64,000 nt of DNA from Naegleria gruberi (Eukaryota): the NCBI GenBank assembly GCA_000004985.1, contig GG738904.1; one strand, given 5' to 3'. The first letter of the stretch is position 1. The number at the start of each line of letters is the position of its first letter. Shown piece by piece: positions 13,501-39,842 of the stretch. The notes under the pieces are model-generated. The model was not told the origin of the DNA. It saw only the letters and a list, made by a program, of their open reading frames with translations, and ran no database searches. Both the position numbers and the translations under genes were made by a program.

Positions 13501-13723
13501 NNNNNNNNNNNNNNNNNNNNNNNNNNNNNNNNNNNNNNNNNNNNNNNNNNNNNNNNNNNNNNNNNNNNNNNNNNNNNNNNNNNNNNNNNNNNNNNNNNNN
13601 NNNNNNNNNNNNNNNNNNNNNNNNNNNNNNNNNNNNNNNNNNNNNNNNNNNNNNNNNNNNNNNNNNNNNNNNNNNNNNNNNNNNNNNNNNNNNNNNNNNN
13701 NNNNNNNNNNNNNNNNNNNNNNN
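7514..13723. other. Assembly gap (6210 N)
   Basis: Run of n characters. Confidence 1.
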
Positions 13724-14154
13724 CCCTAACCCAAACCCAAACCCAAAGCCAAACCCAAACCCAAACCCAAACCCAAACCCAAGCCCAAACCCAAACCCAA
13801 ACCCAAACCCAAACCCAAACCCAAACCCAAACCCAAACCCAAACCCAAACCCAAACCCAAACCCAAACCCAAACCCAAACCCAAACCCAAACCCAAACCC
13901 AAACCCAAACCCAACCCAAACCCAAACCCAAACCCAAACCCAAACCCAAACCCAAACCCAAACCCAAACCCAAACCCAAACCCAAACCCAAACCCAAACC
14001 CAAACCCAAACCCAAACCCAAACCCAAACCCAAACCCAAACCCAAACCCAAACCCAAACCCAAACCCAAACCCAAACCCAAACCCAAACCCAAACCCAAA
14101 CCCAAACCCAAACCCAAACCCAAACCCAAACCCAAACCCAAACCCAAACCCAAA
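13724..14154 (-). repeat. Second, internal telomere-type array, (CCCAAA)n of about 72 units, in the same orientation as the terminal array
   Basis: It starts immediately after the gap. Variant units (ccctaa, caaagc, caagcc, one cccaa) sit in the left part. It is perfect up to the junction ...cccaaac|taaaaatag. Degenerate telomere-like remnants (aaacccaacgttcaaaccctagccc) follow to about 14200. Confidence 0.9.
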
Positions 14155-15022
14155 CTAAAAATAGAATTCTTCTAAACCCAACGTTCAAACCCTAGCCCAA
14201 AATTATAAACTTATTCAAATATCATTAAATTTTATATCATTCGATTGGAAATTATGAGTAGAACAACGTGGTATATTTAGTTTTTCAATTTATAAAATAT
14301 TAAATTTGTTAATAATGTCAGATTAAAATTTCATAAATGAAACTATAGGAAGAATGATAATTTCAAAATCGTTTAATGAGATTATATAGTCAATATCATC
14401 ATTAACAACATTCATAATCACTTTCATATGAAATTTCAAAGGTTCATGTCTGTAGATATAAAAGTATCAAGTGAAAAGGGAAGATGTGAGGTAAAAGAGG
14501 TCAACAATAACTTTTGAGTTTCTCATCAAAACATATTGAATCCTAATATGAAAATGTTCCATTTGATGATTAAACATCGAATATCAAATTTATTTTGACT
14601 TTCATATTTACAGATTTCTTCCCTCAATCACACATGGTCAACTTGTATGAAAAGGAGGAAATCTTGAAAAAGGACCACCTATTGAAACTTTACCATCATG
14701 ATGTAGATGATATATAATGATGTAGAATTCAATTTCATATCATAAGAATTAGAAATGGTACCATGGGAATGTAAATGTTGATTTTCCAAAGTTGACTGAN
14801 AGGAAAGACAAGTCAGACCAAGTCTATCAAATATATCACTTCAATCAACAAATTATACATGAAAATGCTCCATTCGATGNNNNNNNNNNNNNNNNNNNNN
14901 NNNNNNNNNNNNNNNNNNNNNNNNNNNNNCATGAGTGCAGAACTGAGTTATTCAAAATTTGTGAATGTTCGGTCCAGTCAAATCAAAGATGGGTTCTTAA
15001 CTACCCATAGGTTTGCATTCTT

Positions 15023-25119: not shown

Positions 25120-26365
25120 GAAATAATTATTCTTTCATGTGATACTAACACGAATCATGGCCAACCGAAAAATAGCACTTGAATGCATGTAGATAAACTA
25201 TTCTAAACCTTTCATAACCTTTCGCACACTTTGAATGTTTTCAATAAAACTTCACAATTCTTTGCAGTGATGATTGAACACCTTCTTAAACCAACCTCAT
25301 CCTATTTCGTGCATGTTTCTATTCGAAAGATTTAAAACGAGGCTAAATATGTGAACTTTACAACACAATTTTCCAAACATTGAAAGTGCCTTCCTTGTTA
25401 TCCTCAAACAAAGTCCTGAGGAGAATAGGTGTGCTATTGAGAAGTATCTAATAATCCCCAAATAGATTGGTCCATTCGATGGGCTCTCCTTCTAATATTG
25501 TAATCGAATGCTAAATTATTCGAATGTGCACACATGTGTGAGGCTTTTTCAATCCAATAAACGTGTCAAAAAAACAAGTTCATTCAGACCTTGCTAATCT
25601 CGCTCTCATAGTGGCCCAAAAGAATCTAGGAATTACTGCAGAGGACACTTTTACTACTATTCGCTTCTTGCCGAAACTCCACACAATTGTTTTTCTTGCA
25701 TTTTCAGAATTGAGTGTTGCAAGCTTGTTTCGACTTTTCTAGAGAACACACCAAGAACTTCACAAAAGCTCATCTTGGTTCTCCTAAATTCTTCAGTTCG
25801 AACAATTTCTGAACCGGTTACAATTCTACAATTTCCAATACCAACTTTTGATTGAATTTTCAAAGGAAATTGGATGGACAATCGTGCAAAAAAAGTATCC
25901 ACCACACAATACAGTAACTTTATACGAAACTCAACACACTCACGTTGAAGGTTTCGTTATCGTTCAATTTAATATTGAATATATTTTTTGATTAGCACTT
26001 ACCATTGCCGAATTGGACAAAACTATACTAGTATCAGCAACAACCAAATTTGCACTGTCATCAGCTTATTCACAGTCAAAAAAAACATCTATAGACCCTT
26101 CTCTCTAAATTATTCGAAAGTAGAGTGGATTATTCTTCACATCATCAACAGGCGGCACAACAACAATTGTTGTTGATCAACATCCATTGACAATATTTAA
26201 ACACAAAATCGGAGAATACGAAAAAATCTCTGTGAGCAGTAAAACTAATAACCGAACAAAAAATTTGCCGCCAAAAAAGAAAATTGCTGAATTCAAACCT
26301 GAACTTGCGTAAACATTTAAAAACTTGTTAAATTCACACACACAAATTATCAATTGGATTTCAAC

Positions 26366-29300
26366 ATGCAAGTTTCAGAACAACAAGTATCTGTAGTACT
26401 AACTCATCAACCACAATCATCATCAATATCTGAAGCGGATAATAATAATAATAATAATACCATTAACAATATAGATAATAATAATAATAGCAATAATAAT
26501 AATAATAATATAGAGGAAGATAATGATAATAATAATAATATTTACATGCTTTCATTCAATAATAGTGGATTAACACCTGCATTACCTGATCCGAGTCCTT
26601 CACCTCCACTTAAATCAACTGTTGCAGTAGTTGGTACATCATCACAACAACAAAACATGTCGAAATTATATTCCTCTCCTCCGAATAACATTAACAATCA
26701 ATTAGATTATTCACCAGTGAGGATTAGAACCATCAATTCGGCGACATTACCAACCAATAATAATATTAACAATAATAATGAAGACCGATCACTGATGATG
26801 ACAACAACAACATCTTCATCAACTGCACCTCCTCCACCTAGTTCTTATCAATATCCAATTCCAACAAGACCTACTACTACTAAATCTTCATCCGTGAATG
26901 AGAGTAATAATATGATGGAGGACAATTTCCCCAACACCATAGAAAGTAATGTGCGAACACAAGAACATTCCCAACAACAAACACACTACAAATCCTATCA
27001 TCACAATAATGAAAGAGAAGGAGAACGAGCTTCTTACTATCATCACTCCTATCCATCACAAAATTCCATAATGATGACAAATAATCATAATATCGAAAAT
27101 TGGAAAGGCTTGAAGGAAAACAGCAACAATCTATCATCCGCAGAAATTCAAAAAGAACAAGCGAACTTGGTTTACGGCACTCAATACCGCCAAAAGAATA
27201 GAAGTACACAACCACCTAGCAGCGCTTCTTACTTAGGATCAGTTGTTGAACGAGAAGAAAGAGGAGACGAAGAAGAAGAAGATTATCGTGTCTATCATCA
27301 TCAGCAACAACCACAGCAACAACAATATTTGAGAGAGAACTATTATCCTTCTCATCAGGGTAGTAGTACTACGTTGCCAAGCACTACTTCAATCTTGTTG
27401 CCAAGCCACGAAGCAAGGAATATCCAAAATTATAACAACCCTTCGCTACAAATAATTAATCAAAAGAATACCTCCACAAGTTCAACTTCACCTTCTTTAA
27501 ATTTTGCTACAGGTTCGTCTTCACAACAACCATTGCACGGAAGAAGAAATAGCAATTATCATCTGTACGATAATAATAACTATCACCAACAACACCAATA
27601 CGTGGAGAGAAATAATAACAATTTTCCAACAACTTCTCTCCATCAACGAACAACACCAACAACAATAGCAGAATATCAAGTTGGAGCTCCTAGTTATTCT
27701 AAACAAAGTTCAATGCAACAACAACCCTTTGTCATTCAGCCAAGTATGCAGCCCTCATCTGGAATACCGTCCTTTCACCAAGTTCACTCATCCTCCTCTG
27801 CCACCAATTCCTTCCATGTACCTTCCAATTATCAACAACATCATCATCATCAACCTCCACCACCACAACACTATCAACCACTTCCTCCGTCATCATCATC
27901 CTCATCAAATTATTTGAATCCTCCACACCAACAACAACAACAATCATCCTACTCTTCACCAAACAGTAACCAAACTAACTCATCCGAACCAAAATTACGT
28001 GTCTATAATTCAACATTAAAAGTTCCAGAAGGAATTTTTTCATACGATAACACAACACTAACTTGTGAACCTCATGGATTTAAGCCAAATGATAGAAGAG
28101 GAGCTCCACAAACAACTCACAGTGTCTACGTGAGTGATGTATTAGTAGTTACTTGTGATTTGGTTAACATGTCGAATCAACCAGGTGTTTTTCAAAATTG
28201 TACTGCGAGATTGGTTCATTTGATGGGAAAGAATGCTAAAAAGAAGAGAAAGGAAGGAGTCAGTGATCAAGATGATGGTTTAGACTCGGAGGATGATGAT
28301 TTGGATGATGGAAAGAAGAAGAAAAAGAAGAATAAGAAGAAGGATCAAGAAGATTCACTTGATGGTGATTTTGTTACTGATTTTTCACAGGCAGGAATGT
28401 TAGAGTCTTTTGAATTATTATCGGAACAACCTTGTCAAGAAAATGTTCAGAAAGGAAAGATTGTTTCCTCCCTCAAGGTTCCTCGTGTTAGGGGAAGAGA
28501 TTGTAAAACAAAGACTGGACAAATTCAAGTTATTAGATTTAAAGGAACAGAGAGAGAACATATTATTGCTGTGAGTGACTTGTTCTGGATAAGATCTAGA
28601 ACAAGAACAGAGATGGAAGTGAGAAAGTTCAAGAAACAACAGCAACAAACTCCACAACAATCATTGCCATCTCATCAACCACCTCAACAACAACCAATTT
28701 CTGTTCAATCACATGAAACTTCCAATCTTTCTTTGCATCATCATGCACAACAACTTTCTCATCCACCAACAATTCCATCTTCAAGTTTAAATCCTCCTCG
28801 TGAAAATTATCATAATCCACAATGGCCAAATATGCCAAATATTGTACAACCAAATTCACCAAGTACAAATGAGCATGCTGGTCTTCCTCCTAAAAAGAGA
28901 AGGAATAATAGTCCAGGAGGTGGTAATACACCAAACACTTATAGAGTTCCTTCAAATCCAGCTGCTTCAATTGTTCACTCATCAACAGGATATTTCCCCT
29001 CAAACAATATTCAACATCAAGAGAATGGTAAAGTACCAAATCTACACGATTCTCCTTCTCTTAGTCATCATCATCATCACGTGCCTTATCAACCATCGAG
29101 GAATGAACCAACTTATCATGAATTACTACAACGAGTTCACACATTAGAAGAAAAGTTGAATAGACTTGAAAGTAAATTGACTAGAGCTGGACATTTGTCA
29201 CCTGAGTTCCCAATGCCACCTGATAGTCAAACATTTTCTCCATTCCTCCCTAGTTCTGCAATTCAGCCACGTCCTGTTGAACCACCTAAAACTTTTGCAC

Positions 29301-29539
29301 CTTTCCCAATTGATGTTTTCATTAAAGACGATAAGAGAGGAGAAAACCCAACATTGCCTTCAGTGGTTTCGTCAGATTCCCAACCAGCAATTTTTAATCC
29401 AAAATCACCACTTCCAAGTTTCCCTTTTGATCCATCTGATTCATTCTTGAAGAATAGTTTCTCATCACCACCAGCTTTTACAAATCCAACATCGAGCAGT
29501 TCATCCGAGAGTGGAGGTGGCATGAAGAGAGAACGTTAA
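26366..29539 (+). CDS. Large low-complexity (N/Q/S/P/H-rich) protein of unknown function
   Basis: Single ORF of about 1057 aa from ATG 26366. It has poly-N, poly-Q and poly-H runs, a central non-repetitive segment (KLRVYNSTLKVPEGIFSYDNTTLTCEPHGF...QIQVIRFKGTEREHIIAVSDLFWI), an acidic/KKKKKKNKKK NLS-like insert and a short heptad segment (YHELLQRVHTLEEKLNRLESKL). Confidence 0.6.
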   Translation: MQVSEQQVSVVLTHQPQSSSISEADNNNNNNTINNIDNNNNSNNNNNNIEEDNDNNNNIYMLSFNNSGLTPALPDPSPSPPLKSTVAVVGTSSQQQNMSKLYSSPPNNINNQLDYSPVRIRTINSATLPTNNNINNNNEDRSLMMTTTTSSSTAPPPPSSYQYPIPTRPTTTKSSSVNESNNMMEDNFPNTIESNVRTQEHSQQQTHYKSYHHNNEREGERASYYHHSYPSQNSIMMTNNHNIENWKGLKENSNNLSSAEIQKEQANLVYGTQYRQKNRSTQPPSSASYLGSVVEREERGDEEEEDYRVYHHQQQPQQQQYLRENYYPSHQGSSTTLPSTTSILLPSHEARNIQNYNNPSLQIINQKNTSTSSTSPSLNFATGSSSQQPLHGRRNSNYHLYDNNNYHQQHQYVERNNNNFPTTSLHQRTTPTTIAEYQVGAPSYSKQSSMQQQPFVIQPSMQPSSGIPSFHQVHSSSSATNSFHVPSNYQQHHHHQPPPPQHYQPLPPSSSSSSNYLNPPHQQQQQSSYSSPNSNQTNSSEPKLRVYNSTLKVPEGIFSYDNTTLTCEPHGFKPNDRRGAPQTTHSVYVSDVLVVTCDLVNMSNQPGVFQNCTARLVHLMGKNAKKKRKEGVSDQDDGLDSEDDDLDDGKKKKKKNKKKDQEDSLDGDFVTDFSQAGMLESFELLSEQPCQENVQKGKIVSSLKVPRVRGRDCKTKTGQIQVIRFKGTEREHIIAVSDLFWIRSRTRTEMEVRKFKKQQQQTPQQSLPSHQPPQQQPISVQSHETSNLSLHHHAQQLSHPPTIPSSSLNPPRENYHNPQWPNMPNIVQPNSPSTNEHAGLPPKKRRNNSPGGGNTPNTYRVPSNPAASIVHSSTGYFPSNNIQHQENGKVPNLHDSPSLSHHHHHVPYQPSRNEPTYHELLQRVHTLEEKLNRLESKLTRAGHLSPEFPMPPDSQTFSPFLPSSAIQPRPVEPPKTFAPFPIDVFIKDDKRGENPTLPSVVSSDSQPAIFNPKSPLPSFPFDPSDSFLKNSFSSPPAFTNPTSSSSSESGGGMKRER

Positions 29540-33081: not shown

Positions 33082-34089
33082 ATGACTAGTCAAGAGAGTA
33101 ATGATGGATCAATTTCCTATGGATGGTGGATTGCCACTCTTTTAATAGGAATTGTCCTGATGAGAATATTGCAATTAATTATGAAATTGAAAAGACAAAT
33201 AAGCAAGGCTGGTGGAACTCCTGGTTATTGGCAATTATTGGCTGAAGGCTTGTTTATCATGCCAATTCTTTCGCCCTATATTGCTCATGGTAATTTCCCA
33301 GTGATTCAAGGATTGATTGCTAAGGAGGAAGAGAGAGCTAAGGGAAGTGATGAAAAGCAATTGATTATTCGTGTCAGTACTCCCTATAGAAATAATTATG
33401 TAATTTGGGATAAGGATTCAGTGAAGGAAGTTTTAGTTACAAAATCATCATCCTTTCCAAAACCTTTGGATTTTTATGAACCTTTCAATATTTTCGATAA
33501 GGATGCTACTTCAATTTTGACAGCTGCCGATGGTCCAGTTTGGAAGAATCATAGACATGTGGTGGCTCCTTCATTCTCAACTGGTAATTTGGTTTTTATG
33601 AGTCAAGTGACTGTAAAGACAGTTGATGCATTGTTTAGAACAAAGTGGAATAAGTTATTGGACCAGGATAGTAAGGGATTCATTATGGATATGGAAGATA
33701 CTACAGCTGTCACTCTTCAAATTATTGGTGAAAGTGGATTTGGTATGGATTTTGGTGTTTTCGATGAAACTAGCTCTGATTCTAAAAAGTTTAGAGAAGC
33801 ATTGAATATTGTCGTGAGAGTTGACTATTATGCCAGATTCTTCCTTGCTAAAATCCCATTCCTTTACAATGCAGTTTCTGATTATACTGGAAATACAGAA
33901 GCTCTCAAGGTGATGAGTGAAAAGCTTGAACAATGCATTTCTCAAAGAGTAGCCGAATTCAAACAAGATCCAGAAAAACCAATGAATGATTTATTGTCGC
34001 TCCTTGTTAAGGCAAACATGATGGATGAAAAACTCACACTCAATGAATTGAAGAGTAACAGTTACATCTTCGTAGTTGCAGGTCATGAG
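33082..34089 (+). CDS. Cytochrome P450 (copy 1), 5' portion, ending inside the I-helix motif ...FVVAGHE; interrupted by a 5.09-kb insertion
   Basis: N-terminal TM anchor (WWIATLLIGIVLMRIL) and an alignable paralog at 55239. The frame reads gca ggt cat gag then tat tga. The missing continuation TTATTMQW... is found at 39234. Confidence 0.8.
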
Positions 34090-34618
34090 TATTGAAAATC
34101 AGAAGGTGTTCTTAAAGATGGTCACTGGTGCCATCAATGGTTTGATTCGTGGATTTTGGTTAAAGATATTATTCCACTTGAAGAACATTCTTCAATTATT
34201 AGGAGATGTTACAGCATGCTATGTGGAAAGTACCGTTAATATTTCCAAAGATATTTTGGAAATGTACAGTTTCATAATGAAGGAATCATTTTTGGAAAGA
34301 TTAAATTCAAGAATTGAGGAGAGAAATCTTTTATGTATTGATTTTGAAATTGTTAACAATGGATTGGTAGATAGGAATGCAGAGTGTTTTAACTCATGGT
34401 ATGAAAATGTATCTAAACATCTTATTGATTGGTCAAGTAAGGCTGTAAGTAATCGATTTGCAGAGTTTACAGAGTTAGTGGATGAAATTTTTGGTCAAGT
34501 TAAGAATGATTATGCAATGATTGCTGATAAAACTATTGAAAAGAGAACAATGGAGTATAATTTTATTACTGAAAAGAAGAGAAGATTGACAGAATTGATC
34601 AAAGAGTTAAAAAAGTAG
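34085..34618 (+). CDS. Hypothetical helical protein (177 aa), first ORF of the insertion
   Basis: Its ATG is the ATG inside the left CATGAG junction repeat. The peptide is MSIENQKVFLKMVTGAINGL...KKRRLTELIKELKK. No family recognised. Confidence 0.35.
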   Translation: MSIENQKVFLKMVTGAINGLIRGFWLKILFHLKNILQLLGDVTACYVESTVNISKDILEMYSFIMKESFLERLNSRIEERNLLCIDFEIVNNGLVDRNAECFNSWYENVSKHLIDWSSKAVSNRFAEFTELVDEIFGQVKNDYAMIADKTIEKRTMEYNFITEKKRRLTELIKELKK

Positions 34619-34675
34619 ATTGGTAATGAGTAAATTGAATTGTGTCTGTGCAATTCTGATTGTATTCTTGTAAAG

Positions 34676-35070
34676 TGGTGATGGTACCTGTCAGGTACCG
34701 TCACAGGTACTTGGCAGGTACGATTTTTACCATCACAGGTACCGTCACAGGTACTTGGCAGGTATCACAGGTACCATCAGGTACCATCAGGTACCATCAC
34801 AGGTACCGTCACAGGTGCAAATGGTACCTGACAAGTACAATCACAGGTACCGTCACAGGTATCTGAATTTCCTCACAGGTACCATCACAGGTACTTGGCA
34901 GGTATCACAGGTACCATCACAGGTACCATCACAGGTACCGTCACAAGTACTTGGACCATCACAAGTACCCTTACAAGGACTTGTAAGGTGCTCAACACGT
35001 ACCTACAGTGTCTGACAAGTATGGTACCTCACAATAACCATCACAGCTACAACAAACACCATAACAAATA
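34676..35070. repeat. Degenerate minisatellite, about 12-bp unit CACAGGTACC(R)T with a palindromic GGTACC core, about 28-30 units
   Basis: Direct reading: ...ggtaccgtcacaggtacttggcaggta...ggtaccatcacaggtaccatcacaggtaccgtcaca... It lies between the convergent 3' ends of ORF 34085-34618 and gene 35100-36299. Confidence 0.85.
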
Positions 35071-35099
35071 CTTTTTATATCTCCTCCAATCAACTATAT

Positions 35100-36299
35100 T
35101 TATTTGAAATATTTGGATTTCTTAATAGGTCTATGGACATTATGATCATTTTCTGAATCAGAACTAATACCACCTCTATCTGAAGAATCTTCTTCAACAT
35201 CTTCTTCTTCATCATCCTCTTCAACTTCACAATGATCAGCATTTCCAAAGCAAATATTGTACCAAATTGGAGGACCTTCATCAGACTTGTTACAATCATC
35301 TTTATCCATTTGCTTTTCAAAGAATAACTCCATTTCAAAGGCATCAAGTTCTTCATTCAATTGAATAACATCCTTAACAGGTGGTTCTATGATGGCTTCC
35401 TCTTCAATATAACCATTCTCATTGTAACGATTGATGAGAAGAACTGTTTCCTTTGAGGTGTCAAATATCTCTTCTTCCTCCTTCTCATTAAAATCAATAC
35501 TTTCATCATCTGCTATAGTTGCAGATTCCTTCTTTTCATACTCCACAATTAAATTCAAACCACTAACATCTGGTTTGATTACAAGACTGGAAAGCGTGTC
35601 TTCATTTAGAGATGGCAAATCATCATATGGGAAAACAATACTTTGAGTTTCACTAACGGATGAGTATCCATCTTGATCTGCTCTAGCCATTTCGACAGAA
35701 TCATCATCAGTGAGTGCATCATCTTCTGTTAGAATCAATGGTTCATTAAATACATCAACTTGTTCTTCCATCTGAGTTTCTGCACTTGATATAATCAATA
35801 AAGGTTGAACCAATTCATATCTCTCATTGGTGTAAGAGTAAAGGTCAATGTCATCATTGTTTAATAACAAGTTTAACAATGTTGAATTACTAGTCTGTGA
35901 AAGCACTTTTCCCTTCTTACTAAACTCTCCAACAAATGCTTGGAAATTGAATTCACTATTACATTGTTCCAACTCTTTGAAATAAATCAAAGAAGGGTTC
36001 ATTTCAAGTAAATCTGCCAAATCTTCTAATTTACTATCCATGGATAAAAAGTCATCATGCTTCTTCTCCTTAAAAATCAAAAGTAAGAGACAAAGTGCAA
36101 AATAATCACAAGAGTAATCTGCTGATAATCCATTAATATCATCTTGATTGATAGGATCGTTACCAAGCCAAAAAGATGTCAATTCCTTCCTTAGCTTGAT
36201 ATCCAAATAACAGAAATCACTGACAACTTCACTATAAAATTTCTTCTTTACTAATTCTTCTACTAAACACCACTTGTTGAAATATGTATTGTACAACAT
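35100..36299 (-). CDS. Acidic hypothetical protein (399 aa) inside the insertion
   Basis: Uninterrupted ORF from ATG 36299 with a D/E-rich C-terminal half (EVEEDDEEEDVEEDSSD). It is divergent from the Myb-endonuclease gene across a 345-bp spacer containing a (TA)n tract. Confidence 0.5.
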   Translation of the reverse strand: MLYNTYFNKWCLVEELVKKKFYSEVVSDFCYLDIKLRKELTSFWLGNDPINQDDINGLSADYSCDYFALCLLLLIFKEKKHDDFLSMDSKLEDLADLLEMNPSLIYFKELEQCNSEFNFQAFVGEFSKKGKVLSQTSNSTLLNLLLNNDDIDLYSYTNERYELVQPLLIISSAETQMEEQVDVFNEPLILTEDDALTDDDSVEMARADQDGYSSVSETQSIVFPYDDLPSLNEDTLSSLVIKPDVSGLNLIVEYEKKESATIADDESIDFNEKEEEEIFDTSKETVLLINRYNENGYIEEEAIIEPPVKDVIQLNEELDAFEMELFFEKQMDKDDCNKSDEGPPIWYNICFGNADHCEVEEDDEEEDVEEDSSDRGGISSDSENDHNVHRPIKKSKYFK

Positions 36300-36644
36300 G
36301 ATGGATTATTCCTTTTTTTTCAAAAACAAAAGCTTTCACACAACCTCGAGTCGTGTGAAATGTCTCACACTCTAATATTTTAATATTTTTATAAGGCTTG
36401 AATATATATATATATATATTGAAAAGGGATTGACCGAAACTGGAAGACACATTAATTGGATATCTAAAGAGACCAAACAAATTTTCCTCAGAATTGAAGA
36501 GTCACGTCGCTACGTCCCTCAAGACATCCACACAACTTTGCAAATTAATACAATTGAGAAAAAAAAACTACTTTTATTTTCGACTCAACTTTGTTACAAG
36601 TAACAACACACATCAAATTCCAACACAGAACTCAATATAGCAGA

Positions 36645-38966
36645 ATGATAAGAAAAAACTGGTTAAAAGAAGAAGAAGATCTTTTGGTCAAATTGGTAAA
36701 GGAAAAAGGCCACAATTGGACTGAAATTGCTCCCAACTTCGATGTTACTCCAAATGCCTGCCACAAAAAGTATAAGGATTTGTTAAAGAATCTTGGCAGG
36801 AAAAGATCGTTCTGGACTGATGAAATGAAAGCTAATCTCCTTAAATTAGCAAAAGAATATGCCGATAAAGGAATAGAGAAATGGAAGATTATTGAGGAAA
36901 AATTAGGAAAAGAAGCTAAAGCTTGCCAACAGCATTTTTATTATTTAGTCAAACAGCACGGGTTGGATTCTAATGATTTCAACAGCGTCAGACCATTTTG
37001 GACCATGGAAGAGAAGCGCGAATTGACTGAGTTAGTCAATTTGCATGGAAGGAAGTGGAAGAAAATTGAGAAACTAATTAGCTGCAACAGAGATGCTCAT
37101 TCTTGTCAGAGCCAGTTTATGCTATTAGAAAGTAGACAGAATGATCCAATTGAAAAGAAGTTGAACGATATCTTTCAAGCAACGACTTCAGAGACAGATT
37201 TGAATGAAATCTCTCTTTACGAATTCTTCAATATCCCAACAAGTAGATACAATGGGGTTCCAGCATCGACTTTGTTGGTGGATCAAGCAGATGAAGTTGA
37301 TGAAGAAACATTTCATCGTTCTTACATGGCTGGAGATACTGAATTTAGTGTACGTGAGGTTGCAACTGGTAGATTGGTCAGAAAAACCATTGAGGAGATT
37401 TATCTTTCCAGTGGAACATATGAAACATATAGTATTGAATCTGGATTTAATGTGGAAGAAATTGGTAAGTTTCGTTTCAATTACTATTTTCAAAGAATAA
37501 TAATAATGAAAGAATGTAAATTGTTTCCAGCAAATGAAGTATTAGAGTTGAGTGCTACTTGTTTCAAAGCAAAATTATATTTCAATGAATGTGCTCGAAT
37601 TGTTGAAGAGAAACGTTTCATATTTTCCGAACAAGTTCAAGTCCGTCCAGATGAGTGCAGTAGTGTGAGATTACCTGTATCAGATCTTCAAGACAATATG
37701 TTCATCATTAATAACTATCAATTGAAATCCAAGGAAAAGCTTGTAAGAACATCATTACCATGTGGTCAACTTACTGACACCACCCAAACAAAAGAATGTA
37801 AGTATTTTATGAATTATTCTCATAATATTTTAAAGATTTTGACATTTTGTTCAGAACTTTCCCAACTCTAGTTGACTCCAAAGACAAACAGGGAGTCATG
37901 GTTCAACTATTGGGAGCCTATTTAGCAGATGGTGATGGAGGATACTTTAAATTGTATTTTAATGCCAAAAATGAGCAAGAACTTACCTATTATTTTACAG
38001 ATTTCTTAAAAGAAATTTGTGAATTGAATTCAGAGACAATAAGAGAGGATCTTAAATTCAAGAAAGAGGAAGAGTATGTCACCATTAAGCTCAATGATAA
38101 GAATGCTGACAAGGATATTGAACGAGTCTTACAAAATGGTTATCAAATATCCGGGTCCATACTTGTTGCACCTGCATGGTATGTTTTTCACTTTCAATAC
38201 ATTTTTACTAGTAACAAATAGTACTGGCTTACACAGATTTTTAAAAGAAATAGAATTGTTATGTAATAAGTATAATGGCAGTTACCAAACTAGAAAGAAT
38301 TTCTCTTCCATCTTCAACATTACAAATTTTGGTATGTTTAGCTTGTACAAATTTTTCGAAGGTTCTGTACAAGGAGATGGCACATTAGAGAGTAATCGTG
38401 TAACGTTTGGTCAGAATTGTTCAATTTCAGATACTCACCAACAGTACTTTAATCAGGTCCACCATTGTGCAACCATGCTTGGGTTAAAGACTGGCGTGGG
38501 TAAAGTGTGTGAAGAAACTACAGGTTTGAAAATGACTGGTAAGAACATGACCATTTTTGAAAGTGAAGGACTTGAGAAAAAGAAAGTAAATGCAGATGTT
38601 GTGTTTAGACCATTTAATCTTACAGTTCAAAGATTAATAGGTGAATCAATGAAGAAGATGTACTGTTTCAAGAAGAGTAATCACTCCTTCCCAATGTTTA
38701 ATGGAATGATAGTGCAAAATGTTGATACTGATCTAGTTTCTGCTAAAATATGTTATGGGAATAGATGGGAAATTCGTGAAATGGACAACTATGAATCTGC
38801 TGCCACTTTCTGCTTGAAGAAATATATTGCTTCCTTAGGGTTTCCAAGTGACCGTATGACAAGAAATGCTGTAAGAAGATTAATACTAAAAATAGAAGGA
38901 ATAGTATCTGTTAAAAGAAAGCAAAAATCAAACAAGGAATCAAACAAGAAAGTTAAAACACAATAA
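36645..38966 (+). CDS. 3x Myb/SANT repeats fused to an intein-derived Hint domain with an embedded double-LAGLIDADG homing-endonuclease domain (HO-like architecture), 746 aa
   Basis: Exons 36645..37797, 37836..38178, 38222..38966; the 38-nt and 43-nt introns keep frame. Myb repeats: KNWLKEEEDLLVKLVKEKGHNWTEIA, SFWTDEMKANLL...KWKIIEEKL, PFWTMEEKRELTELVNLHGRKWKKIE. Intein block A YMAGDTEFSVREVATGRLVRKTIEEI; LAGLIDADG-1 QLLGAYLADGDGGY; LAGLIDADG-2 LYKFFEGSVQGDGT; blocks F/G KSNHSFPMFNGMIVQNV. Confidence 0.75.
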
Positions 38967-39060
38967 CATTTCAATTAAAGAATATATTTACTGAACTTTA
39001 TTAAATGACTTTTTATTTCTGAATAAACAAAAGTATATTGAGCACTTTTGCATCCATTTG

Positions 39061-39178
39061 AAAATTGACAATCATTTCTGCTGAAATGGTCATGTAAGAA
39101 GTATGAATTATGTCATTCTGGAAACTCTTCGTATTCATCCACCTGTAACATGTGTTTAGAGTTGCTAAGAAGACAACC
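39061..39178 (+). pseudogene. Orphan, frame-broken cytochrome P450 fragment (K-helix ExxR region) at the right edge of the insertion
   Basis: It reads ...MNYVILETLRIHPPVTCV*, then after a frame shift RVAKKTTT. At nucleotide level it is closer to P450 copy 2 (atgaactatgtc...attatggaaact) than to copy 1. It is out of order relative to the host gene. Confidence 0.55.
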
Positions 39179-39233
39179 ACATGAGGTTCGTGTTTTATAA
39201 TTAATTTTACAAGTGTTTAACAAAATATTTAAG

Positions 39234-39842
39234 ACGACTGCCACAACCATGCAATGGTTAATGTACGAATTGTCCAAGCGTCCAGAAGCTCAACAAAAGG
39301 CCAGAGAAGAAGCAATCAGAATTGGAGGAGGTGACAATGTTTTGAGAGCTCCAGATTTTGATGATTACAACAATATGGACTATATTCATGGTTGTGTAAT
39401 GGAATGCTTACGTCTCCATCCACCAGTCGTTTCCATGGTAAAAACCTGTGCCAAATCTACCAAAATTGGAAAAACAAGCATTCCAAAGGGATCTTGCATC
39501 TATGTAAATGCCAAGGCCTGTCACTTGTACGGTGAAGATTTTAACACCACTGAATTTACTGGTGCTCAATTCGCTCCAGAAAGATTTTTGGATAAGGATT
39601 TCAAACAAAAGGTTCAAACAAGTGGAGCATGGTTCCCATTCAATATGAGTAATAGAAAATGCATTGGTTACATGTTTGCCCAAATTGAATTGTGTATCAT
39701 GTTGTGTAGAATGTTGCAATTTTATGAATTCAAATTGTTGAATGATGAAAGTAAACCAGCTGAGAAGGTTGAAGATCTTCCTGGTATTACCTTTAGACCA
39801 TCTTCTAATTTGAAGGTTTTGGTAACAAGAAGAACAAAATAA
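39234..39842 (+). CDS. Cytochrome P450 (copy 1), 3' portion
   Basis: It begins TTATTMQWLMYEL, the continuation of AGHE|TT. It carries ECLRLHPP (ExxR), FAPERF and the heme loop FPFNMSNRKCIGYMFA. It is preceded by catgag (39180-39185) and a 48-nt GT-AG intron (39186-39233). Confidence 0.8.
   Translation, partial: TTATTMQWLMYELSKRPEAQQKAREEAIRIGGGDNVLRAPDFDDYNNMDYIHGCVMECLRLHPPVVSMVKTCAKSTKIGKTSIPKGSCIYVNAKACHLYGEDFNTTEFTGAQFAPERFLDKDFKQKVQTSGAWFPFNMSNRKCIGYMFAQIELCIMLCRMLQFYEFKLLNDESKPAEKVEDLPGITFRPSSNLKVLVTRRTK

What the first reader, a model, noticed from the sequence alone, without database searches (positions are those of the whole stretch)
36645..38966. HO-like gene: an intein-derived Hint + double-LAGLIDADG endonuclease fused to three Myb repeats
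The spliced 746-aa product has all the intein landmark blocks in order. Block A is YMAGDTEFSVREVATGRLVRKTIEEI (compare the canonical CLAGDTLV...G....I.EL). LAGLIDADG-1 is QLLGAYLADGDGGY. LAGLIDADG-2, about 125 aa later, is LYKFFEGSVQGDGT. Blocks F/G are KSNHSFPMFNGMIVQNV (canonical ..HNF...NG.hVHN followed by C/S/T). Every protein-splicing residue is replaced: Cys1 to Tyr, block B TxxH to TCFK, the terminal HN to QN, and the +1 residue is Val. The acidic residues of both LAGLIDADG motifs are kept. This is the pattern of a free-standing endonuclease rather than a splicing intein. The known precedent is yeast HO, a domesticated VMA1-intein relative with an added zinc-finger DNA-binding domain. 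Here the added DNA-binding module would be N-terminal Myb repeats. I do not know of this fusion and cannot check databases from here.
Basis: partly seen in the sequence, partly recalled or inferred. Interest (0 to 1): 0.9.

Follow-up and report, generated by a model that had tools for sequence, protein, structure and literature searches.

The report
Myb-fused LAGLIDADG nuclease on mobile insert
A Naegleria gruberi gene joins three Myb DNA-binding repeats to what is probably a non-splicing, yeast-HO/VDE-like LAGLIDADG nuclease, and it lies inside a 5.1-kb insertion that splits a cytochrome P450 gene in this strain but is absent from an environmental relative, so it looks more like a selfish mobile element than a domesticated host gene.

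Summary
The window is Naegleria gruberi nuclear DNA. The gene at 36645-38966 is real (JGI model NAEGRDRAFT_73307). It has 724 aa and three introns, not 746 aa and two.

Three Myb repeats are solid (Pfam E 4e-20). The LAGLIDADG/intein reading has moderate support only:
- Pfam Hom_end is sub-threshold (14.1 bits, E 0.05).
- A profile comparison with VDE/HO-like proteins is collinear across both LAGLIDADG motifs and the C-terminal end (P 0.004, z about 5.8 against shuffles).
- The individual blocks do not beat background, and the N-terminal Hint half has no statistical support.
- The structure models are low-confidence.
- The residues needed for splicing are absent.

The context changes the interpretation:
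- The gene lies in a 5,090-bp insertion flanked by a 6-bp CATGAG repeat.
- The insertion splits a P450 at the I-helix AGHE|TT codons.
- A 98%-identical environmental contig has the P450 uninterrupted there.
- That contig differs at 10 mostly synonymous sites within 27 nt of the junction and lacks the adjacent 48-nt intron.
- A second copy of the nuclease gene plus its neighbour ORF lies on another scaffold, and decayed relics exist.
- The family appears only in N. gruberi.

Best reading: a selfish, WHO/HO-like endonuclease cassette, not a domesticated HO analogue. Whether the protein cleaves DNA, and where, is untested.

The parts
36645..38966 (+). CDS of the Myb-LAGLIDADG gene (NAEGRDRAFT_73307). 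Exons 36645-37464, 37531-37797, 37836-38178 and 38222-38966; 724 aa.
   Evidence: The translation of these exons equals P0001 exactly. Introns are GTAAGT..CAG (66 nt), GTAAGT..AAG (38 nt) and GTATGT..TAG (43 nt).
36654..37139 (+). Three Myb/SANT repeats (aa 4-165).
   Evidence: Pfam PF13921 E 3.9e-20 and PF00249 E 6e-20, three stretches. Best PDB sequence relatives are Reb1, c-Myb and SNAPC4.
37323..37400 (+). Intein block-A-like motif YMAGDTEFSVREVATGRLVRKTIEEI (aa 227-252), with Tyr where inteins have Cys/Ser.
   Evidence: Present in the sequence. MAFFT puts Tyr opposite Cys1 of the VDE-like inteins. Not statistically supported.
37904..37945 (+). LAGLIDADG motif 1, QLLGAYLADGDGGY (aa 386-399), acidic residue kept.
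   Evidence: hhalign and MAFFT align it to LLGLWxGDG of VDE/HO-like proteins. Segment hhalign scores 27.2 against 12.2 +/- 2.1 in shuffles, reached by 0 of 60. Kept in the 32%-identical paralog P0003 (MVGLYMADGNS).
38343..38384 (+). LAGLIDADG motif 2, LYKFFEGSVQGDGT (aa 518-531), acidic residue kept.
   Evidence: The Pfam Hom_end sub-threshold hit starts here (E 0.053-0.14). Aligned to FLAGLIDSDG.
38466..38498 (+). CATMLGLKTGV, counterpart of the conserved LARSLGLxxSV helix-strand of the Hom_end family.
   Evidence: Aligned. G344 of the 432-aa query segment (the G of MLGL) is one of two invariant columns in A2.
38673..38723 (+). Intein block F/G-like end, KSNHSFPMFNGMIVQN followed by Val (aa 628-644).
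   Evidence: The pairwise and profile alignments end exactly at ..VVHN of VDE. Weak on its own.
38721..38963 (+). 81-aa C-terminal tail after the intein-like end, finishing in a basic KRKQKSNKESNKKVKTQ stretch (possible nuclear localisation signal; inferred).
   Evidence: Sequence only. No family hit.
34090..39179 (.). Inserted element proper (5,090 bp), absent from the environmental allele L001. It holds ORF180, the minisatellite, ORF399, the nuclease gene and a P450 relic.
   Evidence: L001 and L002 align to the window up to 34088 and resume at 39234. Boundaries were refined from the CATGAG repeat and the intron homology.
34084..34089 (+). Left copy of the 6-bp direct repeat CATGAG (codons His-Glu of the P450 I-helix).
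39180..39185 (+). Right copy of the 6-bp direct repeat CATGAG.
   Evidence: The 12-mer CATGAGGTTCGT occurs only here and at the same codon boundary of the second P450 (56334).
39186..39233 (+). 48-nt intron (GTTCGT..TTTAAG) between P450 codons E336 and T337. Homologous in position and 5' sequence to an intron of the paralogous P450, and absent from L001.
33082..34089 (+). P450 N-terminal half, ending ..FVVAGHE (annotated separately as NAEGRDRAFT_73304).
   Evidence: Joined to the C-half it gives one full-length Pfam p450 match, E 3.9e-63. Exact protein look-up.
39234..39842 (+). P450 C-terminal half, starting TTATTMQW.. (annotated separately as NAEGRDRAFT_73308).
34066..34089 (+). Recoded tract: 9 substitutions in 24 nt relative to L001, plus one more at 39236. 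Six are synonymous; the rest are V/I, M/F and I/V.
   Evidence: Background is 0.57% substitutions over 7.9 kb. Poisson P for the 9 sites scored was 8e-14.
34085..34618 (+). ORF180 (177 aa from an ATG formed by the CATGAG repeat). No known domain.
   Evidence: My ORF versions are not in the protein collection, so the true gene model is unknown.
34680..35050 (.). GGTACC-containing 12-mer minisatellite (about 20-23 units).
   Evidence: Also present next to the ORF399 relic in L003.
35100..36299 (-). ORF399, an acidic protein with no known domain (NAEGRDRAFT_73306). Co-duplicated with the nuclease gene.
   Evidence: In the same 90%-identity cluster and almost identical in sequence to P0022 (NAEGRDRAFT_65339, UniProt D2V8Z9). 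P0022 is on the same 573-kb scaffold as the nuclease paralog P0002 (D2V8Z8), and their accessions are consecutive.
39100..39147 (+). Relic of a P450 K-helix from a different P450 (SMNYVILETLRIHPPV), inside the element near its 3' end.
   Evidence: tblastn against the host C-half: E 1.4e-4 within the 267-nt spacer, E 0.8 within the whole window.

Best explanation
The gene encodes a free-standing nuclear protein. Three N-terminal Myb repeats are fused to a degenerate, non-splicing, intein-type (VDE/HO-like) double-LAGLIDADG endonuclease. It is the presumed nuclease gene of a roughly 5.1-kb selfish cassette (ORF180, GGTACC minisatellite, ORF399, nuclease gene, P450 relic).

The cassette has inserted at the His-Glu | Thr-Thr codon boundary of a cytochrome P450 I-helix, which is also an exon-intron junction in this gene family.

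Proposed mechanism (inferred, not shown): the Myb repeats and the LAGLIDADG core together recognise a long site at this P450 position and cut it. Repair from an occupied copy, or from a paralogous template, either copies the cassette in or rewrites the site.

Shown:
- the domain composition, at the confidence levels given elsewhere in this report;
- the insertion, with a precise empty allele;
- the 6-bp flanking repeat;
- the local recoding and the intron difference;
- the second copy and the relics;
- the restriction of the family to N. gruberi.

Inferred: that the protein is an active nuclease, that its target is this P450 site, and that it moved the cassette.
For: Domains:
- Myb x3, E 4e-20.
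- The only family-level hit for the remaining 500 aa is Pfam Hom_end, at LAGLIDADG-2 to the MLGL block (14.1 bits, E 0.053).
- hhalign against 17 VDE/HO-like sequences is collinear over 371 columns (query 4-423, template 6-454), P 0.0044, score 30.3 against 15.8 +/- 2.5 in shuffles.
- hmmsearch is reached by 2 of 1000 shuffles. The exon-4 piece ranks 1 of 1,999 in the window.
- MAFFT independently aligns both LAGLIDADG motifs, the RSLGL block and the terminal block.
- The LAGLIDADG-1 segment alone has z about 7.
- Both catalytic-position Asp residues are kept, and one is kept in the 32%-identical paralog.

Mobility:
- L001 (7,990 bp, ENA ERZ929261) and L002 (a Logan assembly of the same run) are syntenic and 98% identical, and they lack 34090-39233 precisely, leaving an intact P450 ORF.
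- A CATGAG repeat flanks the element.
- There are 10 substitutions in 27 nt at the junction, against 0.57% background. The pattern is mostly synonymous or conservative, so that stretch evolved as coding sequence elsewhere.
- The adjacent intron is present here and in a paralog but absent from L001.
- ORF399 and the nuclease gene are duplicated together on another scaffold.
- Relics exist: P0003 and L003, a truncated ORF399 plus minisatellite at 89% identity.
- A K-helix relic of another P450 lies inside the element.
- The family has only three members, all N. gruberi, among 1.84 billion cluster representatives.
Against: - No cleavage data and no expression data.
- Homology to LAGLIDADG/intein families is below curated thresholds, and single blocks are not above background.
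- The N-terminal Hint half is unsupported.
- The unbiased AlphaFold model was useless (pLDDT 36).
- The insertion destroys the host P450 reading frame, with no evident way of being spliced out (5' end TATTGA, no GT; no group I/II intron by Rfam). Introns, inteins and WHO elements all spare their host, so this differs from them.
- A 6-bp flanking repeat is not what a LAGLIDADG cut (4-nt 3' overhang, from general knowledge) plus homologous repair predicts. It fits transposition or microhomology-mediated capture better.
- The direction of the local conversion (this strain or the environmental one) cannot be decided.
- The flanks of the second copy could not be retrieved, so recurrence at P450 sites is unproven.
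- The paralog model P0002 lacks LAGLIDADG-1. This may be a mis-modelled gene or a decaying one.
Confidence: 0.5

Rival explanations
1. Passenger or inactive remnant. The 5.1-kb segment was inserted by another process, such as an unrecognised transposon using ORF180 or ORF399, or capture of a segmental duplication at a chance break. The Myb-LAGLIDADG gene is cargo or a decayed relic and plays no part in the movement.
For: - The 6-bp direct repeat CATGAG looks like a target-site duplication.
- The host gene is simply broken.
- Two further ORFs of unknown function travel with the nuclease gene.
- The paralog model lacks LAGLIDADG-1.
- The block-level motifs are weak.
Against: - No terminal inverted repeats.
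- No transposase, integrase or reverse-transcriptase domain in any ORF.
- A chance insertion does not explain why a dense, coding-compatible conversion tract and an intron difference sit exactly at the junction.
- It also does not explain why a relic of another P450 lies inside the element.
Confidence: 0.22
2. One reading: a domesticated, HO-like host endonuclease that makes a programmed break for a cellular purpose and no longer propagates itself.
For: - The architecture parallels HO: an intein-like core without splicing residues, plus an added DNA-binding domain (PMC7282813).
- The ORF is intact with three plausible introns.
Against: - The gene lies in a strain-polymorphic insertion that disrupts another gene.
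- It is present as two near-identical copies plus relics.
- No ortholog was found in any other organism among 1.84 billion representatives.
- No homolog of the nuclease part was found from the environmental run ERR1078381, or from any other source, in the 5.8-billion-cluster search, although other contigs of that Naegleria strain are in the collection.
Confidence: 0.1
3. Not a nuclease. The protein is a Myb transcription factor or terminator-type protein (Reb1-like) with a lineage-specific C-terminal domain, and its resemblance to inteins and LAGLIDADG proteins is coincidental.
For: - Only Myb passes curated thresholds.
- The best PDB relative is Reb1.
- No PDB, NCBIfam or PHROG hit for the C-terminal part.
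- Block HMMs do not separate the motifs from background.
- The AlphaFold models are low-confidence.
Against: - Four landmarks occur in the correct order and spacing.
- The full-length profile match exceeds shuffles.
- The one sub-threshold Pfam hit is the family predicted in advance, in the right register.
- The motif Asp is conserved in a 32%-identical paralog.
- The secondary-structure order of even the unbiased model fits helix-hairpin-helix-hairpin-helix twice.
Confidence: 0.15

Closest known systems
WHO elements of Torulaspora/Lachancea (Coughlan et al. 2020, PMC7282813; Osborne et al. 2026, bioRxiv 10.64898/2026.08.13.744650)
   Same: - A free-standing, non-splicing, intein-like double-LAGLIDADG gene fused to an extra DNA-binding domain.
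- Associated with one nuclear protein-coding host gene, whose 3' part starts at the junction.
- Host-gene relic fragments lie beside the nuclease gene.
- Multi-copy, with pseudogenes.
- Occupied and unoccupied alleles exist.
- There is a burst of sequence change at the site in the host gene.
   Different: - A different supergroup (Heterolobosea, not budding yeast).
- An N-terminal Myb domain instead of a C-terminal GATA-like zinc finger.
- The host is a P450, not FBA1.
- The element does not bring a replacement 3' half, so the host gene is split rather than kept functional.
- It carries two extra ORFs and a minisatellite.
- It is flanked by a 6-bp repeat.
- Cleavage has not been tested.
HO endonuclease of Saccharomyces
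   Same: - An intein-derived (VDE-like) LAGLIDADG nuclease with no exteins and no splicing.
- An added DNA-binding module is presumed to extend target recognition.
   Different: - HO is a single-copy domesticated gene with a cellular role (mating-type switching), and it does not lie in a polymorphic insertion.
- HO has a zinc finger at its C-terminus and lacks intein motif G. This protein keeps a motif-G-like ..VQN and has Myb repeats at its N-terminus.
PI-SceI / VDE (VMA1 intein) and related Hom_end inteins
   Same: - The best collinear sequence match covers both LAGLIDADG motifs, the RSLGL block and the F/G-like end.
   Different: - Not embedded in-frame in a conserved host protein.
- Position 1 is Tyr, the block-B His is absent, the penultimate His is Gln and the +1 residue is Val, so canonical splicing is impossible.
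- Similarity is below Pfam thresholds.
Intron- or intergenic free-standing homing endonuclease genes (e.g. phage and organellar HEGs)
   Same: - A nuclease gene is associated with a specific insertion site in a conserved coding motif.
- There are co-conversion-like changes in the flanks.
   Different: - Those occur in organelles, phages and rDNA, and are either spliced out or intergenic.
- This one is in a nuclear protein-coding exon at a spliceosomal intron junction and is not removed.

Membership tests
Myb/SANT DNA-binding domain (Pfam PF00249 / PF13921) | Score above the Pfam gathering threshold; tandem repeats of about 50 aa. | tested here: met
   72.2 and 71.5 bits against cutoffs of 22.9 and 24.4; three stretches, aa 4-165.
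LAGLIDADG endonuclease, single-chain double-motif type (Pfam Hom_end PF05204, LAGLIDADG_3 PF14528) | Two LAGLIDADG motifs about 100-130 aa apart, each ending in an acidic residue followed by Gly. | tested here: met
   LLGAYLADG (aa 387-395) and FFEGSVQGDG (aa 521-530), 132 aa apart. Both align to the family motifs.
LAGLIDADG endonuclease, single-chain double-motif type (Pfam Hom_end PF05204, LAGLIDADG_3 PF14528) | Score above the curated Pfam threshold. | tested here: not met
   Hom_end scores 12.7-14.1 bits against a cutoff of 21.1 (E 0.14-0.053). There is no LAGLIDADG_3 hit at E<=10.
LAGLIDADG endonuclease, single-chain double-motif type (Pfam Hom_end PF05204, LAGLIDADG_3 PF14528) | An alpha-beta-beta-alpha-beta-beta-alpha fold, twice, forming a pseudo-dimer. 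| tested here: inconclusive
LAGLIDADG endonuclease, single-chain double-motif type (Pfam Hom_end PF05204, LAGLIDADG_3 PF14528) | Metal-dependent site-specific DNA cleavage. | not testable with these tools
   Needs a biochemical or in vivo assay.
Intein (protein-splicing Hint domain) | Cys/Ser/Thr at position 1, and Cys/Ser/Thr at +1 of the C-extein. | tested here: not met
   Tyr227 (Phe in P0003) at position 1 and Val644 at +1.
Intein (protein-splicing Hint domain) | Block-B His, and a terminal His-Asn. | tested here: not met
   No His at either candidate block-B alignment (NEVL or TCFK). The end is Gln-Asn, so Asn is kept and His is lost.
Intein (protein-splicing Hint domain) | Hint-fold halves flanking the endonuclease, detectable by Hint, Intein_splicing or Hom_end_hint models. 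| tested here: not met
   No such Pfam or NCBIfam hit at E<=10. The N-terminal 100-150 aa are indistinguishable from shuffles in hhalign. Only the C-terminal end aligns, and weakly.
Intein (protein-splicing Hint domain) | In-frame insertion in a conserved host protein. | tested here: inconclusive
   The core is flanked by a Myb region and an 81-aa tail.
HO/WHO family | C-terminal GATA-like zinc finger with CxxC motifs (PMC7282813). | tested here: not met
   Pfam finds no zinc-finger domain in the protein. The extra DNA-binding module is an N-terminal Myb domain.
HO/WHO family | Sequence membership in the HO/WHO clade. | tested here: inconclusive
   Identity to the VDE/HO-like sequences is 14-18%. 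No phylogeny is possible at this divergence.
Homing genetic element (general definition used in bioRxiv 10.64898/2026.08.13.744650) | [quoted passage not shown] | tested here: met
   The window is occupied. L001 and L002 are unoccupied, with a precise junction, in syntenic DNA 98% identical.
Homing genetic element (general definition used in bioRxiv 10.64898/2026.08.13.744650) | Insertion does not disrupt host gene function. | tested here: not met
   The P450 ORF ends at a stop two codons into the insert. The halves are annotated as separate genes. There is no usable 5' splice site and no self-splicing RNA.
Homing genetic element (general definition used in bioRxiv 10.64898/2026.08.13.744650) | The element's endonuclease cleaves the unoccupied allele, and repair copies the element in. 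| not testable with these tools
   Only indirect evidence: the junction-localised conversion tract.
Cut-and-paste or other classical transposon | Target-site duplication. | tested here: met
   A 6-bp CATGAG repeat at both ends.
Cut-and-paste or other classical transposon | Terminal inverted repeats or LTRs, and a recognisable transposase, integrase or reverse transcriptase. | tested here: not met
   No terminal repeats. No such domain in any ORF of the insert.

The most novel reading that the evidence does not exclude
N. gruberi harbours a previously unrecognised kind of nuclear homing-type element. It would be a multi-gene cassette whose Myb-guided, intein-derived LAGLIDADG nuclease targets the conserved I-helix exon-intron junction of cytochrome P450 genes. 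It would move between alleles and paralogs and drive local recoding and intron loss at the target. That would be an evolution of the HO/WHO architecture independent of fungi, and the first such element in Discoba.
Probability: 0.3. Interest if true: 0.9.

Novelty: new variant of a known kind. Interest (0 to 1): 0.74.

Why it matters
Nuclear homing-type elements in eukaryotic protein-coding genes are extremely rare. The known cases are a few fungal and algal inteins and the yeast WHO elements. HO and WHO are described as the only fusions of an intein-like nuclease with a DNA-binding domain.

A Myb-fused counterpart in a heterolobosean amoeba would show that this architecture arose more than once. 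It would offer a natural long-site nuclease with a modular DNA-binding add-on. It would also give a concrete polymorphic locus, with occupied and empty alleles in hand, where nuclease-driven gene conversion, intron loss and target-site recoding can be tested in a protist whose sexual cycle and recombination are poorly known.

If the nuclease proves inactive, the locus is still a clean example of a recent 5-kb insertion that killed a P450 gene.

Tried and rejected
- Sequence searches of the C-terminal 500 aa found no intein or LAGLIDADG hit: Pfam, NCBIfam, PHROGs, and PDB by phmmer and by a 3-sequence profile. The one exception was sub-threshold Hom_end.
- Block-wise HMM scans of the window's six-frame translation did not rank any single motif above noise, so single-motif arguments were dropped.
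- hhalign of the N-terminal part alone was not significant, either against all VDE-like sequences or against only their first 95 residues.
- My first gene model used a GTATTT donor at 37802 and gave 719 aa. I rejected it for the JGI model because paralog P0003 conserves ..IFLRNFP...
- I first read the last 48 nt of the insert as a continuation of the P450 relic and the CATGAG repeat as chance. I rejected that after finding the same CATGAG|GTTCGT exon-intron junction in the second P450.
- A longer flank duplication upstream of CATGAG is not supported (reached by 156 of 2000 shuffles).
- A group I/II intron or tRNA-linked element is excluded by the Rfam and ARAGORN scans.
- A chimeric query (ORF180 + ORF399 + P450 junction region) to find paralogs failed. 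I think low-complexity acidic words filled the candidate list, though the tool gave no reason.
- The N. gruberi genome itself is not in the contig index, so the second copy's flanks could not be read.
- JGI metagenome scans with the family alignment and with a degenerate DNA pattern found nothing.
- Literature searches found no prior description.


Full report
**Identity of the sequence.** The window is AT-rich eukaryotic DNA with short GT..AG introns and assembly gaps. A protein search identified it as Naegleria gruberi. The gene in question is JGI model NAEGRDRAFT_73307 (P0001, EFC38794, 'predicted protein', 724 aa).

**Gene model.** It has four exons: 36645-37464, 37531-37797, 37836-38178 and 38222-38966. 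The three introns are 66, 38 and 43 nt long. The translation equals P0001 exactly. My first alternative model (719 aa) was dropped because the distant paralog P0003 conserves the peptide that only the JGI model contains.

**What the protein is: secure part.** Residues 4-165 are three Myb repeats (Pfam PF13921 E 3.9e-20, PF00249 E 6e-20). The nearest solved relatives are Reb1, c-Myb and SNAPC4.

**What the protein is: the remaining 560 aa.**
- Curated libraries give almost nothing. There is no Hint, Intein_splicing, Hom_end_hint or LAGLIDADG_3 hit at E<=10, and nothing in NCBIfam, PHROGs or PDB sequences.
- The one exception is Pfam Hom_end, the PI-SceI/HO endonuclease family. It covers LAGLIDADG-2 through the MLGL block at 12.7-14.1 bits (E 0.14-0.053), below its 21.1-bit cutoff.

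**Comparison with VDE/HO-like proteins.** I collected 17 VDE/HO-like sequences and compared their profile with the three-member Naegleria family.
- hhalign gave one collinear alignment over 371 columns (query 4-423, template 6-454), with P 0.0044 and score 30.3. One hundred column shuffles gave 15.8 +/- 2.5, maximum 24.
- An HMM of the same family scored the protein at a level reached by 2 of 1000 shuffles.
- That HMM ranked the exon-4 ORF piece first among 1,999 six-frame pieces of the window.
- MAFFT, run twice, independently aligned four features: LLGAYLADG to LLGLWxGDG, FFEGSVQGDG to FLAGLIDSDG, CATMLGLKTGV to LARSLGLxxSV, and MYCFKKSNHSFPMFNGMIVQN to YYGITLxxDSDHxFLLxNxxVHN. The last alignment ends exactly at the intein terminus.

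**Limits of that evidence.**
- The LAGLIDADG-1 segment is clearly above shuffles (reached by 0 of 60). The LAGLIDADG-2-to-end segment is marginal (2 of 60). The N-terminal 'Hint' part is not above shuffles at all (11 of 60 and 33 of 80).
- Block-wise HMMs do not lift any single motif above genomic background.

**My estimate for the domains.** A double-LAGLIDADG nuclease fold is about 80% likely. Intein ancestry is about 65% likely. A working intein is excluded, because position 1 is Tyr (Phe in P0003), the block-B His is absent, the end is Gln-Asn, and the +1 residue is Val.

**Distribution.** An exhaustive HMMER scan of 1.84 billion cluster representatives found only two relatives, both from N. 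gruberi.
- P0002 is about 95% identical in aligned parts and lies on a 573-kb scaffold.
- P0003 is 32% identical, is a partial model on a 2.7-kb contig, and still carries MVGLYMADGNS.

**Context: a split P450.** Upstream of the gene, an ORF (33082-34089) ends ..SYIFVVAGHE and then a stop. Downstream, another ORF begins TTATTMQWLMYEL (from 39234). Joined, they give a single full-length Pfam p450 match (E 3.9e-63). A P450 is therefore split exactly inside its I-helix AGxETT motif. JGI annotated the two halves as separate genes.

**Context: what lies between the halves.**
- ORF180, whose ATG is formed by the junction.
- A GGTACC 12-mer minisatellite.
- An acidic ORF399 on the minus strand.
- The Myb-nuclease gene.
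- A short relic of the K-helix of a different P450 (SMNYVILETLRIHPPV).

**The empty allele.** Exact-sequence look-ups found a 478-aa uninterrupted version of this P450 (P0025). It is encoded on an ENA metagenome contig (L001, 7,990 bp, sample ERZ929261) and on an independent Logan assembly of the same run (L002). L001 is syntenic with the window over 7.5 kb, including the malic enzyme gene. It is 98% identical up to 34088 and resumes at 39234. This is a precise empty site.

**The junction in detail.**
- Relative to L001, the occupied allele has substitutions at 34066, 34069, 34071, 34074, 34075, 34080, 34083, 34086, 34089 and 39236.
  - That is ten changes in 27 nt, against 0.57% elsewhere. 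The Poisson P for the nine sites scored was 8e-14.
  - The nearest other differences are 115 and 96 nt away.
  - Six changes are synonymous third-position changes. The rest are V/I, M/F and I/V.
  - The tract therefore evolved as functional coding sequence in another copy and was moved in by gene conversion. This is inference.
- The second P450 of the window (55245-56919) has its I-helix interrupted by two introns around a 7-nt micro-exon ACATGAG.
- The 12-mer CATGAGGTTCGT occurs only twice in 64 kb: there, and at 39180.
- So 39186-39233 is a 48-nt intron homologous in position to the paralog's intron, and L001 lacks it as well.
- The element proper is therefore 34090-39179 (5,090 bp), flanked by a 6-bp direct repeat CATGAG.
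- At the ten variable sites, the occupied-type flank matches the paralog at four and the empty type at none (my count from the sequences printed).
- Whether this strain or the environmental one was converted cannot be decided.

**Copy number.**
- ORF399 has a near-identical paralog (P0022, UniProt D2V8Z9) on the same 573-kb scaffold as the nuclease paralog (D2V8Z8). Their accessions are consecutive, as they are for neighbouring genes at this locus. The two genes were therefore duplicated as a unit.
- The environmental sample also holds a truncated relic: the last 300 nt of ORF399 plus the minisatellite, at 89% identity (L003).

**Interpretation.** Several features fit a selfish, recently mobile cassette:
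- presence/absence polymorphism with a precise empty site;
- co-duplicated copies, and decayed relics;
- restriction to one species;
- a relic of another P450 inside the element.

A localised conversion tract and an intron difference lie exactly at the insertion point. That suggests recurrent double-strand breakage at this P450 site, and the only candidate nuclease in the element is the Myb-LAGLIDADG protein. This is the logic of the yeast WHO elements and of HO's origin (PMC7282813; bioRxiv 10.64898/2026.08.13.744650), and I take those as the closest known systems.

**Differences from WHO/HO, and caveats.**
- There is no zinc finger. The added domain is Myb and is N-terminal.
- The host gene is broken rather than repaired with a replacement half.
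- The element carries extra ORFs.
- The 6-bp flanking repeat fits transposition or microhomology capture better than classical homing.
- No transposase-like domain or terminal repeat was found, and no self-splicing RNA.

**Verdict.** The domain interpretation is plausible but only moderately supported. The 'domesticated HO analogue' reading is less likely than a WHO-like selfish element. Nuclease activity, target and mechanism remain inferred.

Noticed in passing
window 56287-56395 (second P450, 55245-56919 +): The I-helix AG|HE|TT of the second P450 is encoded across a 7-nt micro-exon ACATGAG (56333-56339). It lies between a 46-nt intron (GTATGT..CATAG) and a 56-nt intron (GTTCGT..TTTTAG). 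The rare donor GAG|GTTCGT is shared with the intron at 39186.
   Followed up: partly
window 34680-35050; L003 840-1097: A GGTACC-containing 12-mer minisatellite (about 20-23 units, many KpnI sites) lies between ORF180 and ORF399. It is conserved next to the ORF399 relic in the environmental contig, so it is a stable part of the element. Its function is unknown.
   Followed up: partly
window 34055-34065: GTAACAGTTAC is a palindromic pair of YAACNG (c-Myb-type) sites. It lies immediately 5' of the recoded tract and is identical in the occupied and empty alleles. It could be a Myb docking site or a coincidence.
   Followed up: no
window 14000-14155: A perfect tandem array (CCAAAC)x26 abuts an assembly gap (N run ends at 13723; further short N runs at 14880 and 16102). 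It looks telomere-like or satellite-like.
   Followed up: no
window 34085-34087: The ATG of ORF180 is created by the host-derived CATGAG at the left junction (c-ATG-ag|TATTGAA..), so the first ORF of the element starts in the flanking repeat.
   Followed up: no
L003 1-485 (ENA ERZ929261 k127_254167): Homology to the element stops abruptly at L003 position 486 (window 35403). The rest of the contig is unrelated AT-rich DNA, so this is a truncated relic copy at another, unidentified locus of the environmental Naegleria.
   Followed up: partly
protein P0002 (paralog, other scaffold): The JGI model of the paralog lacks Myb repeat 2, the LAGLIDADG-1 region and the stretch before LAGLIDADG-2. Either exons were missed or the copy is decaying. 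Its DNA could not be retrieved.
   Followed up: no
window 26354-29539: A very long (1,061 aa) low-complexity Asn/Gln/Ser/Pro-rich ORF lies upstream. It is conserved at 98% in L001.
   Followed up: no
protein P0004: A Logan-derived 'protein' that is the S. cerevisiae VMA1 intein carrying a chitin-binding-domain insert and ending VVVQN. I take it to be a cloning-vector sequence (recognised from memory, not checked) in a public run. It is unrelated to the window.
   Followed up: no
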